Shown here in pieces: positions 1 to 29,645 of a stretch of DNA of 29,645 nt. Both the position numbers and the translations under genes were made by a program. Where the stretch lies: NCBI GenBank assembly GCA_964016885.1, contig CAXHJY010000388.1, positions 1 through 29,645 on the forward strand. Direction: 5' to 3'. Origin of the DNA: Eledone cirrhosa (taxonomy: Eukaryota). The notes under the pieces were generated by a model that was given only the letters and a program-made list of their open reading frames with translations, searched no databases and was not told where the DNA came from. How positions within the stretch are numbered: position 1 is the stretch's first letter; each line of letters begins with the position of its first letter.

Positions 1-997
1 ATATTTTTTTATATATATATATATATTTTTTTTATATATATATATATTTTTTTATATATATATATATTTTTTATATATATATATATATATTATATATATA
101 TATGTATATATATATATATATATATTTATATATATTTATATATATATATATATATATATTTATATATATATATTTATATATATATATATATTATATATAT
201 ATATATTTATATATATATATTTATATATATATATATATTTATATATATATATATATATATATATAATTTATATAATATATATATATATATATATAATATA
301 TATTATATATATATATTTATATATATATATATAATTTATATATATATATATATATAATATTATATATATATATATATTTATATATATATATATATATATA
401 TATTTATATATATATATTTATATATTATATATATATTTATATATATATATTTATATATATATATATATATATTTAATATATATATTTATATATATATATA
501 TATATTTATATATATATATTTATATATATATATTTATATATATATATATATATTATATTTATATATATATATTATATATATATATATATATATATTTATA
601 TATATATATATTATATATTATATATATTATATATATTATATATTATATATTTATATATATATATTTATATATATATATATTTATATATATATTATATATA
701 TATTTATATATATATATTTATATATATATATTATATATATATATATATATATATATATATATATATATACTATATATATATATATATATATTATATATAT
801 ATATATATTATATATTTATATATATATTTATATATATATATATATATATATTTATATATATATATTTTTTTTTTATATATATATATATTTTTATTTTATA
901 TATATATATATATATTTTTTTATATATATATTTTATATATATATATATATTTTTTTATATATATTTTTGTATATATATATATATATATATATATATA
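1..997. repeat. (TA)n microsatellite with TTTA/poly-T interruptions
   Basis: Almost pure alternating TA, read directly. Confidence 0.98.
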
Positions 998-1202
998 ACG
1001 AAGGAAATGTGGTAAGGAACCAGGTGGACCATGACGCACCAAAGTACTCAATACTTGAGGTAGTAGAGTGGGTAATAGGAACCAGTAAGACCCCGACAGC
1101 TGAGCTCAAGCCGTTTCGACGGCTAATTCTGGACGCTAATGAGTCCAGAATTAGCCGTCGAAACGGCTTGAGCTCAGCTGTCAGGGTCTTACTGGTTCCT
1201 AT
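998..1202 (-). mobile_element. Very short PLE-type remnant: inverted repeat (arms 1075-1134 and 1143-1202, 8-nt loop) plus ~77-nt unpaired tail (998-1074)
   Basis: The 60-bp arms are reverse complements with one mismatch. They contain GAAAC-GGCT-TGAGCTC-AGCT-GTC, which looks like hammerhead stem III with a GUC site, and CTAATGA lies in the loop. The hairpin-plus-tail layout matches the two clearer PLEs. Confidence 0.6.
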
Positions 1203-2597
1203 ATATATATATATATAAATATATATATATAAATATATATATATAAATATATATATATATATATTTATATATAAATATTTATATATATATAAATATATAT
1301 ATATATATATATATATATATATATTTATATATAAAATAATATATAATATATATATTTATATATAAATATATATATAAATATATATTTATATATAAATATA
1401 TATATATATATATTTATATATAAATATATATATATATATATATATTTATATATAAATATCTATATATATATATATATTTATATATAAATATATATATATA
1501 TATATATATATATATTTATACATAAATATATATATATATATATATATATATTAATATATATATATATATATATATTTATATATAAATATATATATATATA
1601 TATATATATATATTTATACATAAATATATATATATATATATATATATATTTATATATAAATATATATATATATATAATATATATATATATATTTATACAT
1701 AAATATATATATATATATATATATATATTTATATATAAATATATATATATATATATATATATTTATATATAAATATATATATATATATATATATTTATAT
1801 ATAAATATATATATATATATATATATTTATATATAAATATATATATATATATATATATTTATATATATATATATATATATATTTATATATAAATATATAT
1901 ATATATATATATTTATATATAAATATATATATATATATTTTATATATAAATATATATAGTATATATATATATATATATTTATATATAAATATATATATAT
2001 TTTTTTTTATATAATATATATTTTTTTTTTTTTTATATATATATATATATATTTTTATATATATAATATTTTTATATATATATTTTTATATATTTTTATA
2101 TATATATATATTTTTATATATATATATATATTTTATATATATATAATATATATAAAGTATATAATATAAGTATATATATAAATATATATATATATATATA
2201 TATAGTATTTATATATAAATATATATATATATAATTATAAATATATATTATATATATATATATATTTATTTATATATAAATATATATATATAAATATATA
2301 TATATATATTTATATACAAATATATATATATAAATATATATATAATATATATATATTTATATATAAATATTATATATATATAGATAATATATATATATAT
2401 TATATATATAAATTATATATATAATATATATAAATATATATATATTTATATATAAATAAATATATATATATATAAAATAAATATATATATATATATATAA
2501 ATAAATATATATATATATATATATAAATAAATATATATATATATATATATATAAATAAATAAATAAATAAATAAATATATATATATATATATATATT
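1203..2597. repeat. (TA)n microsatellite with TAAA/TTTA variants
   Basis: Read directly; recurring atttatatataaat unit. Confidence 0.97.
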
Positions 2598-2738
2598 TAG
2601 TCAATGGCAACATTGAGGACCGAGTAAGTTAGATTACCGATATAAAAGACAGCGAGAAGCGAAAACCAACCAGTGAGTGTGTTCTGTTATTAATTCTGGC
2701 AATATTACACAAATATGACCCTCCCCAAGTATAACAAT
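2598..2738. other. Unidentified ~140-bp non-TA island, probably a transposon fragment
   Basis: Complex sequence bounded by TA on both sides. No ORF, tail or ribozyme core recognised. Confidence 0.35.
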
Positions 2739-26620: not shown

Positions 26621-26850
26621 TTGAATTAGTATGGTATAGACAAGTACATATGTTGTTTAGGTGTATGATATTGTCAATACTCTGATATGCCCAGTTCCTT
26701 GTTGGGTTGTTAATTCACTGGGGAACTGGAGTCATATGACTCCAGTTCCCCAGTGAATTAACAACCCAACAAGGAACTGGGCATATCAGAGTATTGACAA
26801 TATCATACACCTAAACAACATATGTACTTGTCTATACCATACTAATTCAA

Positions 26851-26905
26851 ACTGCCTGAAGAGGTCACAGCCAAAGATGGCTGTCACTGAAATATATATA
26901 GCAGT
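26851..26905 (+). ncRNA. Type I hammerhead ribozyme with minimal palindromic stem III
   Basis: ACUGC-CUGAAGA-GGUCACAGCCA-AAGA-UGGCUGUCACU-GAAA-UAUAUAUA-GCAGU: stem I ACUGC/GCAGU, CUGANGA and GAAA cores, long stem II and an AUA cleavage triplet. Confidence 0.85.
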
Positions 26906-27053
26906 AATAAACGAAGCTAAATTTTAATCATTTGACTTTTATTTAACTTTATTTTACACTACTCCGGAGTAACCAAACCAACCTGCGCACTTCGTCGAGT
27001 GCTCCAGCCTGCATACTGAGGTGTTGGTATACAACCAACATAAACTCAAAATC

Positions 27054-29645
27054 TATTTATATATATATATATATATATATATATTTATATATATATATAT
27101 TTATATATATATATATATATTTATATATATATATATTTATATATATATATATATATATATATATATATATATATATATATATATATATATATATATATAT
27201 ATATATATTTATATATATATATATATTTATATATATATATATATTTATATATATATTTATTTATAATTATATATATATATTTATTTATATATATATATAT
27301 ATATATATTTATTTATATATATATATTTATATATATATATATATATATATATTTATTTATATATATATATTTATATATATATATATATATATATTTATTT
27401 ATATATATATATTTATATATATATATATATATATATATATATATATATATATATATATATTTATATATATATATTTATATATATATATTTATATTTATAT
27501 ATATATATATATATATTTTATATATATATATTTATATATATATATATATATATATATACATATATATATATATATATTTATTTATATATATATAGTATAT
27601 ATATATATACATATATATATTTATTTATATATATATATATATATATATATTTATTTATATATATATATATTTATTTATATATATATATATATATATATAT
27701 TTATTTATATATATATATATTTATTTATATATATATATATATTTATTTATATATATTATATATATATATTTATTTATTTATATATATATATATATTTATT
27801 TATATATATATATATATTTATTTATATATATATATTTATTTATATATATTTATTTATATATATATTTATTTATATATATATATATATATATATTTATTTA
27901 TATATATATATTTATTTATATATATTTATTTATATATATATATATATTTATTTATATATATATATATATATATATTTATTTATATATATATATTTATTTA
28001 TATATATTTATTTATATATATATATATATATATTTATATATATATATTTATATATATATATATATATTTATATATATATATTTATATATATATATATATA
28101 TTTATATATATATATATTTATATATATATATATTTATATATATATATATATATTTATATATATATATTTATATATATATATATATTTATATATATATATT
28201 TATATATATATATTTATTTATATATATATATATTTATATATATATATATTTTATATATATATATATATATTTATATATATATATTTATATATATATATAT
28301 ATTTATATATATATATTATATATATATATTTATTTATATATATATATATATATATATATTTATATATATATATATTTATATATATATATATTTATTTATA
28401 TATATATATATATATATATATATATATATATATATATATATATATATATATATATATATATATATATATTATATATATATATATATATATTAATATATAT
28501 ATATATATATATATATATATTTATATATATATATATATATATATATATATATATATATATATATATTTATATATATATATAGTATATATTATTTATATAT
28601 ATATATATATATATATTTATATATATATATATATATTTATTTATATATATATATTTATATATATATATATATATTATATATATTATATATATATATATAT
28701 TTATATATATATATATATATATATTTATATATATATATATATATTTATTTATATATATATATTTATATATATATATATATTTATATATATATATATATAT
28801 ATTTATATATATATATATATATATTTATTTATATATATATATTTATATATATATATATATTTATATATATATATTTATTTATATATATATATATATATAT
28901 ATTTATTTTATATAATATATATATATATATTTATTTATATATATATAATATATTTATATATATATATATATATTATATTTATTTATATATATATATATAT
29001 ATATATTTATTTATATATATATATATATATTTATTTATAATATATATTTATTTATATATATATATATATATATATATATATATATATATATTTATTATAT
29101 TATATATATATATATTTATATTATATATATATTATTTATTTATATATATATATATATTTATATATATATATATATATTTATATATATATATATATATATT
29201 TATTTATATATATATATTTTATATATTTATTTATATATATATATATATATATATATATATATTTATATATATTTATTTATATATATATATTTATATATAT
29301 ATATATATTTATATATATATATATATTTATTGATATATATATATTTATATATATATATATATATTTATTTATATATATATATTTATATATTTATATATAT
29401 ATATATATATATATTTATATATATATATATATTTATATATATATATTTATATATATATATATACATATATATATATATATATTTATTTATATATATATAT
29501 ATATAATATACATAAATATATATATATGTATTTATATATATATATATATATATATATATATACATAAATAAATATATATATATATATATTTATATATATA
29601 TATATATATATATATATATATATATATTTATTTATATATATATTT
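27054..29645. repeat. (TA)n/(TTTA)n microsatellite to the end of the window
   Basis: Read directly. Confidence 0.98.

What the first reader, a model, noticed from the sequence alone, without database searches (positions are those of the whole stretch)
1..29645. (TA)n array used as a shared landing pad by at least seven unrelated retroelement families
Seen: 14 islands, each flanked by TA repeat on both sides, and no recognisable element nested inside another, although non-TA sequence is roughly half the window. They include APE-endonuclease LINEs (RTE A, RTE B, a third RTE type, CR1/L2 group) and three mutually dissimilar PLE-type inserts. Known: microsatellite-specific insertion is described for some Tx1/R1-type LINEs and a few DNA transposons, and Penelope endonuclease prefers AT-rich DNA. 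Inference: convergence across nuclease classes suggests that a property of long (TA)n itself (cruciform extrusion, fragility, repair-associated capture) attracts insertions and makes a self-growing safe haven.
Basis: partly seen in the sequence, partly recalled or inferred. Interest (0 to 1): 0.72.

Follow-up and report, generated by a model that had tools for sequence, protein, structure and literature searches.

The report
Retroelement pile-up in TA repeats
Fifteen pieces of jumping genes sit in one long TA repeat, and the same families sit next to TA repeats all over this genome, likely because their own cutting and priming step favours a few alternating T and A bases, so the pile-up is ordinary and not a sign that long TA DNA traps every kind of mobile element.

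Summary
Observation confirmed, mechanism mostly not. The window is a whole unplaced contig: about 52% interrupted (TA)n holding 14 islands (15 pieces, nine families, four demonstrable enzyme lineages; one junction lacks TA). Elsewhere in the genome, seven families scored adjoin TA in 52-100% of 29-30 copies each, against 6.9% background. TA came first: it also lies at 5' junctions and in paralogous empty sites. But hAT (0 of 27), LTR (0 of 16), Tx1-like (1 of 18) and Dong-like (0 of 16) ends do not favour TA. LINE enrichment per base is flat across array lengths. About 95% of RTE B tail-TA junctions are in phase, against 50% for homology-free capture. A 3-6-base ATAT target reproduces the rates, because TA repeats hold about 61% of ATAT sites here. 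Absence of nesting follows from this preference. The PLE fits the Hydra clade, whose (TA)n bias is published; RTE cutting at TA is published too. Open residues: a CR1/L2-like LINE at about 80% TA, and one hairpin family favouring long perfect runs. The scan noted similar pile-ups on other DNA of this genome.

The parts
1..29645 (.). Interrupted (TA)n block, whole unplaced contig; 42% in perfect runs of 4 units or more, with local variant units (TATT, TATTTATT, TAGA, TATGTATCCA)
998..1200 (.). I1: 203-bp non-coding hairpin element (arms 1076-1201); PLE-type architecture, mobiliser inferred
   Evidence: 29 of 29 other copies have TA at the scored end
2596..2737 (.). I2: fragment of a non-coding repeat; some other copies carry inverted arms and end at TA
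   Evidence: by eye, 29 of 29 other copies reach TA within 90 bp of this end; no formal count
5388..8184 (+). 5'-truncated Penelope-like element with inverted partial pseudo-LTR (5388-5592 vs 7883-8086) and the C-terminal GIY-YIG part of the ORF (5701-6237); Hydra-clade motifs in a longer copy
   Evidence: (GIY-YIG E 0.003, below cut-off)
9501..12216 (-). RTE A LINE, 5'-truncated inside the endonuclease domain, (GAT)n tail
13862..16636 (-). RTE B LINE, 5'-truncated at nearly the homologous site, (GAT)n tail, 99.3% to other copies
18185..18808 (-). RTE A 3' fragment
19307..19842 (-). RTE B subfamily 3' fragment carrying a 112-bp duplication shared with other copies
19840..20003 (.). 164-bp piece of an unrelated young repeat with ~204-bp tandem units, joined directly to the RTE piece
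20919..21121 (-). CR1/L2-like LINE 3' end
21355..22595 (+). RTE A 3' part, inside an older degenerate TATG/TACA array
22842..22908 (+). CR1/L2-like LINE tail only
23088..23338 (-). RTE C 3' end with (TAGA)n tail; the same TATGTATCCA variant unit lies on both sides
23577..25341 (-). CR1/L2-like LINE, truncated at the RT N-terminus, about 95% to other copies (clade name recalled from motifs, not tested with references)
25489..25739 (+). RTE B 3' end
26519..27054 (.). I14: non-coding element with a perfect 434-bp palindrome plus tail; PLE-type architecture, mobiliser inferred; 1,568 exact matches to its 28-nt end

Best explanation
The block is a TA repeat into which copies of nine retroelement families were inserted, likely because each family's own target-primed reverse transcription nicks and primes at a short alternating TA site, and in this genome most such sites lie in TA repeats. 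Shown: the families adjoin TA genome-wide, TA predates insertion, other mobile elements do not favour TA, the LINE rate per TA base does not depend on array length, and the RTE B tail joins the target in one phase. Inferred: APE nucleases of RTE A/B, RTE C and the CR1/L2-like family cut at TpA steps, and the RNA tail pairs with 2-4 target bases; the Hydra-type GIY-YIG enzyme targets (TA)n and probably also moves the non-coding hairpin elements. Lack of nesting is a by-product of a roughly 39-fold higher rate per base in TA than outside.
For: Terminal flank TA: RTE A 15 of 29, RTE B 17 of 29, CR1/L2-like 23 of 29, RTE C 22 of 29, PLE 26 of 29, I1 29 of 29, I14 20 of 30; background 6.9% of 37,600 positions. 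Genome-wide, 4,169 matches of the RTE B end followed in phase by 8 perfect TA bases, against 12,633 ends (33%; background 2.2%). Controls: hAT 0 of 27, two LTR families 0 of 16, Tx1-like 1 of 18, Dong/R4-like 0 of 16; the last two end in trinucleotide runs instead. Pooled LINE enrichment by array length 7, 11, 10, 8, 18, 8-fold (66 copies); perfect runs of 44 nt or more not significantly enriched in 6 of 7 families. Out-of-phase direct junctions about 217 (57 of 59, 20 of 50, and about 140 scaled from 12 of the first 100 of 1,147), so about 95% in phase. An ATA target predicts 43% TA calls, ATAT 61%, ATATAT 80%. 5' microhomology to TA: mean 1.27 vs 0.68 null, p 0.005, n = 22. Paralogous empty sites hold the short TA run or AT overlap (4 readable cases). 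P(no nesting) at least 0.72 under the measured rates. Literature: Hydra PLEs insert in (TA)n (PMC8557442 section 11); RTE LINEs cut at TA, and tail-target pairing is proposed (PMC6007223; PMC13295347); PLE protein nicks AT-rich DNA in vitro (PMC11167929).
Against: I1 is enriched at long perfect runs (12 of 28 TA-flanked copies at 44 nt or more vs 12.5%) and none of 29 lies in an array under 40 nt. RTE C (5 of 22) and the PLE (5 of 21) lean the same way without significance. The T-stretch half of the published Tn-TA signature is not visible at TA sites (5 of 37 TTT, 5 of 37 AAA). In-phase joining could also arise by microhomology-mediated repair. Samples are the best-scoring (young) copies, about 29 per family; the background is 40 stretches of 10 kb picked blind at round coordinates, with TA content from 0 to 37%. 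No nuclease was assayed and no true empty allele was seen.
Confidence: 0.75

Rival explanations
1. Long (TA)n extrudes cruciforms or breaks, and retroelement cDNAs are captured there regardless of their nuclease.
For: Convergence of APE and GIY-YIG elements is real. I1 favours perfect runs of 44 nt or more. Perfect AT runs above about 22 units form cruciforms and break (PMC11797062 introduction).
Against: Two other LINE families and three integrase/transposase families do not favour TA. No length dependence for LINEs. About 95% phase-locked junctions. Perfect runs at the 14 window islands sum to 10-46 nt, only one reaching 44.
Confidence: 0.1
2. The CR1/L2-like family and RTE C have evolved true (TA)n specificity, reading six or more alternating bases, and LINE families here partition microsatellites by motif. 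This refines rather than replaces the best explanation.
For: 23 of 29 and 22 of 29 TA flanks match a 5-6-nt target model (73-80%). 5 of 6 further CR1/L2-like 5' junctions are TA. Tx1-like and Dong-like copies end in trinucleotide runs. PMC6007223 states that only Tx1 and R1 clades hold site-specific APE LINEs.
Against: 6 of 29 and 7 of 29 copies were not called TA. In 400 kb of blind sample 0 of 4 older CR1/L2-like tails were TA-adjacent. Clade not tested against references. Tail and target cannot be told apart in the trinucleotide runs.
Confidence: 0.25
3. TA repeats grew out of element tails after insertion.
For: All three LINE tail types end in or contain AT/TA.
Against: TA at random 5' truncation points: 13 of 27, 19 of 27, 7 of 12. 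The same variant units lie on both sides of islands (mean similarity 0.66 vs 0.40, p 0.006; 3 of 14 islands mismatch). Empty paralogous units already hold the TA run.
Confidence: 0.04
4. Insertion is random and purifying selection leaves only copies in harmless TA repeats.
For: None specific.
Against: Selection would enrich all classes, but controls of similar age (about 94-98% identity) show none. The RTE B copies at 99.5% identity already show the bias.
Confidence: 0.03

Closest known systems
Hydra clade of C-terminal-endonuclease Penelope-like elements (PMC8557442; passages and section 11 read)
   Same: Single ORF with C-terminal GIY-YIG, RWR for RWK, DKT, CxCx5C linker, CxxC and CxH motifs, inverted partial pseudo-LTR, insertion in (TA)n
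   Different: Only a new family in another genome; hammerhead match is below threshold here (E 0.3)
RTE-clade LINEs with the Tn-TA insertion signature (PMC6007223 parts 1, 3, 4 of 6; PMC13295347 abstract and passages)
   Same: APE + RT single ORF, microsatellite-like tail, junction at a TA step, short tail-target overlap
   Different: Here over half of copies adjoin TA microsatellites; the upstream T-stretch is not seen at array sites; target duplications look short (0-8 nt where readable) against 7-15 nt quoted for RTE; RTE A/B carry a PHD finger after the RT
TA-microsatellite-targeting DNA transposons MuTAnT, TAFT, Micron (PMC4486113, passages)
   Same: Independent evolution of (TA)n preference; 'safe haven' reading
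   Different: Plant cut-and-paste elements; in this genome the hAT family tested does not favour TA
Microsatellite-specific non-LTR elements of the Tx1, R1 and R4/Dong groups (recalled; the Tx1/R1 restriction is stated in PMC6007223)
   Same: LINE families tied to a simple repeat
   Different: The TA-associated LINEs here are 26-31% identical to each other's lineages and to the Tx1-like family tested, and their preference is looser (52-79%)

Membership tests
Hydra-clade PLE (5388-8184 family) | Single ORF with RT and C-terminal GIY-YIG endonuclease | tested here: met
   911-aa open frame in copy L433; GIY-YIG at its C-terminus weak in Pfam (E 0.003); RT motifs read by eye, Pfam gave no hit on the long frame
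Hydra-clade PLE (5388-8184 family) | RWK and DKT motifs, CxCx5C linker, CxxC and CxH in place of CCHH | tested here: met
   Read in the L433 translation against PMC8557442 section 11; RWK appears as RWR
Hydra-clade PLE (5388-8184 family) | Canonical hammerhead ribozyme in the pseudo-LTR | tested here: inconclusive
   Rfam Hammerhead_1 at 7996-8040, 22.6 bits, below gathering 34
Hydra-clade PLE (5388-8184 family) | Insertion in (TA)n | tested here: met
   26 of 29 copies
Hydra-clade PLE (5388-8184 family) | RT phylogeny inside the clade | not tested
RTE-clade LINE (RTE A, B, C) | APE endonuclease plus RT in one ORF, short tandem-repeat tail | tested here: met
   Pfam Exo_endo_phos and RVT_1 in 1040- and 1062-aa frames of RTE A and B, and in two frames of one RTE C copy; tails
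RTE-clade LINE (RTE A, B, C) | RT phylogeny in the RTE clade | not tested
RTE Tn-TA signature | Insertion at a TA step | tested here: met
   About 95% in-phase junctions for RTE B
RTE Tn-TA signature | T-stretch about 10 nt upstream | tested here: inconclusive
   TA sites 5 of 37 TTT vs 5 AAA; non-array sites 7 of 12 TTT vs 6 AAA in -25..-6
CR1/L2 group LINE | APE + RT ORF2 with tandem-repeat tail | tested here: met
   1074-aa frame in L417; tail
CR1/L2 group LINE | RT phylogeny in CR1/L2 | not tested
   Only shown to be 26-31% identical to the RTE and Tx1-like proteins
Non-autonomous PLE-mobilised elements (I1, I2, I14, 204-bp-unit repeat) | Inverted/tandem architecture with ends in (TA)n and an identified PLE partner | tested here: inconclusive
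   Architecture and TA ends seen; no partner enzyme identified
Structure-driven fragile site capture | Rate rising with perfect run length and shared by all element classes | tested here: not met
   I1 is the one exception on length

The most novel reading that the evidence does not exclude
APE-type LINEs outside the Tx1 and R1 clades, a CR1/L2-like family and an RTE family, have evolved real (TA)n specificity; LINE families in this genome partition microsatellites by motif (TA versus trinucleotide runs); and the Penelope-type enzyme moving the I1 hairpin reads long perfect, cruciform-competent (TA)n.
Probability: 0.2. Interest if true: 0.55.

Novelty: new member of a known kind. Interest (0 to 1): 0.27.

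Why it matters
It explains a striking block by a simple rule: where TA repeats make up about 7% of a genome they hold about 61% of ATAT sites, so any retroelement with a mild TpA preference looks microsatellite-targeted and piles up without nesting. It also gives matched families in one genome (TA-seeking RTE, CR1/L2-like and PLE; TA-neutral Tx1-like, Dong-like, hAT, LTR) for testing whether nuclease or RNA tail sets LINE target choice. If the CR1/L2-like family proves sequence-specific, it would extend APE site-specificity beyond Tx1 and R1.

Tried and rejected
Empty alleles: short-read contigs laid on one insertion with unique flanks (L266) supported the 5' TA junction but showed no clean empty site; those runs may be the assembly's own sample, so no independent support. 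The direct RTE/204-bp junction was not bridged by any listed contig, only both families' continuations were seen. C507, whose RTE B end is identical to the window's, is not an allele of this contig. The first RTE C 5' analysis used a truncated reference and is discarded; eight refetched copies gave 3 TA 5' junctions. A DNA search for I14 returned nothing (the tool skips very common words); a pattern search found it. Rows dropped for lack of a clear end: hAT 3 of 30, LTR 4 of 20, Tx1-like 2 of 20, Dong-like 4 of 20; Dong L397 lies a few bases from TA and would make 1 of 16. The microhomology test kept 22 junctions with perfect TA of 60 examined, 7 more skipped. The empty-site test covered 73 of 95 copies, with 5 hits, 4 readable. 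Rfam miRNA matches are TA-hairpin artefacts below threshold. The idea that 19793-20003 is low-quality sequence was rejected: it matches other loci at 100%. Nine paper searches found no report of CR1/L2-like or RTE LINEs concentrated in TA microsatellites in such a genome; subscription papers are not held, two wanted papers were not available, and no supplements were opened (those of PMC8557442 list Hydra families and may already hold this PLE).
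Full report
What is there. The window is the whole of contig G000:C415 in a 3.0-Gb animal assembly. About 52% is (TA)n with frequent interruptions and 48% is non-TA. There are 14 islands, each bounded by TA. Self-comparison and genome searches resolve them into three RTE A pieces, three RTE B pieces (one of a subfamily with a 112-bp duplication), one RTE C end, three CR1/L2-like pieces, one Penelope-like element, three non-coding elements (I1, I2, I14) and a 164-bp piece of a ~204-bp-unit repeat joined directly to the RTE B subfamily piece. 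Longer copies elsewhere confirm APE endonuclease plus RT for RTE A, B, C and the CR1/L2-like family. RTE A and B are 74% identical in protein; the other lineages are 26-31% identical. The PLE family shows the motifs listed for the Hydra clade.

The association is genome-wide. I scored the first 29 non-self hits per family (30 pattern hits for I14) with one TA call. Terminal flanks were TA in 15, 17, 23, 22, 26 and 29 of 29 for RTE A, RTE B, CR1/L2-like, RTE C, PLE and I1, and 20 of 30 for I14. Background was 6.9% in 40 stretches of 10 kb picked blind (perfect TA is 7.3% of them, and 4.3% in the first 20). An exact count agrees: 12,633 RTE B ends, with 4,169 matches followed in phase by eight perfect TA bases, 33% against 2.2%. 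That share is a floor, since the total includes clusters of same-strand copies without TA.

TA came first. Random 5' truncation points also adjoin TA: 13 of 27, 19 of 27 and 7 of 12. Their microhomology to TA is above chance (mean 1.27 vs 0.68, p 0.005, n = 22). Variant units match across islands in the window (p 0.006; three islands mismatch). In four readable paralogous empty sites the target held a short TA run or an AT overlap with the tail; one RTE B copy hit the single (TA)4 of a 72-bp tandem unit. True empty alleles were not obtained.

Long TA is not a general trap. Ends of a hAT family (0 of 27), two LTR families (0 of 16), a Tx1-like LINE (1 of 18) and a Dong/R4-like LINE (0 of 16, one borderline) are not at TA; the two LINEs end in trinucleotide runs. 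This argues against both break capture and selection. For 66 LINE copies with both ends, enrichment per base was 7, 11, 10, 8, 18 and 8-fold from arrays under 20 nt to over 320 nt. Cruciforms need perfect runs above about 22 units (PMC11797062, passage); such runs were not significantly enriched in six of seven families, and at the window's 14 islands the perfect runs on both sides sum to 10-46 nt. The exception is I1: 12 of 28 against 12.5%. Duplication or addition of TA at insertion could inflate this, but a structure preference is not excluded.

The junction looks enzyme-made. A (GAT)n tail joined to TA without homology would be in phase half the time. Genome-wide I estimate about 4,100 in-phase against about 217 direct out-of-phase junctions (57 of 59, 20 of 50, and about 140 scaled from 12 of the first 100 of 1,147 listed), about 95%. 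A short motif is enough to give the observed rates: in the blind sample 43% of ATA, 61% of ATAT and 80% of ATATAT sites would be called TA, bracketing the LINE families at 52-79%. TA-adjacent LINE tails per kb of TA are 0.72 in the window and 0.58 in the blind sample, so the block is not denser than its TA content predicts. With the measured 39-fold rate ratio, no nesting among 14 insertions has P of at least 0.72, against 0.008 without preference.

Mechanism. Shown: family-specific preference, pre-existing target, no length effect for LINEs, fixed phase. Inferred: nicking at TpA and pairing of the RNA tail with 2-4 target bases during target-primed reverse transcription for the LINEs; (TA)n targeting by a Hydra-type GIY-YIG protein for the PLE and probably for the non-coding elements. 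Array growth appears to be slippage of local variant units; whether insertions feed growth was not tested.

Known background. Hydra PLEs: 'almost all families' insert in (TA)n (PMC8557442, section 11 and passages). A PLE protein nicks AT-rich DNA in vitro (PMC11167929, passages). RTE LINEs show a T-stretch plus TA signature, with tail-target pairing proposed (PMC6007223, parts 1, 3, 4 of 6; PMC13295347, abstract and passages); here the TA half fits and the T-stretch is inconclusive. The safe-haven idea is in print for MuTAnT (PMC4486113, passages). Passages of PMC13282606, PMC9115989 and PMC4758252 added nothing on targets. Nine searches did not find the CR1/L2-like preference or this multi-family comparison. 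Earlier unchecked notes of this scan reached similar readings for other pieces of this genome; they supplied the Hydra and Tn-TA leads, which I checked.

Verdict. Real feature, ordinary cause, a new member of a known kind. Interest 0.27. The bolder reading, true (TA)n specificity in a CR1/L2-like LINE with microsatellite partitioning among LINEs and structure reading by the PLE enzyme, stays at about 0.2.

Noticed in passing
window 10399-10600 (-); L274 and L267 frames: RTE A and RTE B carry a PHD finger directly after the RT (Pfam PF00628 above cut-off); it could read chromatin, untested.
   Followed up: partly
window 12216 and 16636: The two long RTE copies, of different families, are 5'-truncated at nearly the same homologous site in the endonuclease domain; none of the other scored copies ends there. 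Probably chance plus TA microhomology.
   Followed up: partly
window 18808; L022, L031, L036, L042: One AT-rich spot inside RTE A/B recurs as a truncation point and as a target for nested insertion.
   Followed up: partly
window 19840-20003; G000:C1, C976, C1554: A young non-coding repeat with ~204-bp tandem units, itself repeated in 700-bp blocks at several loci; family not characterised.
   Followed up: partly
window 21131-23579: An older degenerate TATG/TACA array bounded by two same-strand CR1/L2-like copies, with different variant units from the TATT arrays outside; could be an old core or a transduced block.
   Followed up: no
L381-L400: Dong/R4-like copies are often followed by the same few sequences or by another copy about 1.7 kb on, suggesting tandem arrays or a specific target next to (TAA)n.
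   Followed up: no
G000:C1:7.3-9.6 Mb: A dense run of RTE B ends nearly all on the + strand and none followed by in-phase TA, likely tandem amplification.
   Followed up: no
L353, L354, L356 (C403, C532, C525): 3 of 10 stretches from small unplaced contigs are 55-66% perfect TA (six were chosen because their contigs held hits), so such blocks recur and may break the assembly.
   Followed up: no
L231-L260: Several I14 copies end in (CT)n before or instead of TA.
   Followed up: no
L427:2495-4279 (-): A second, distant PLE with RT and GIY-YIG above Pfam cut-off beside an RTE C copy.
   Followed up: no
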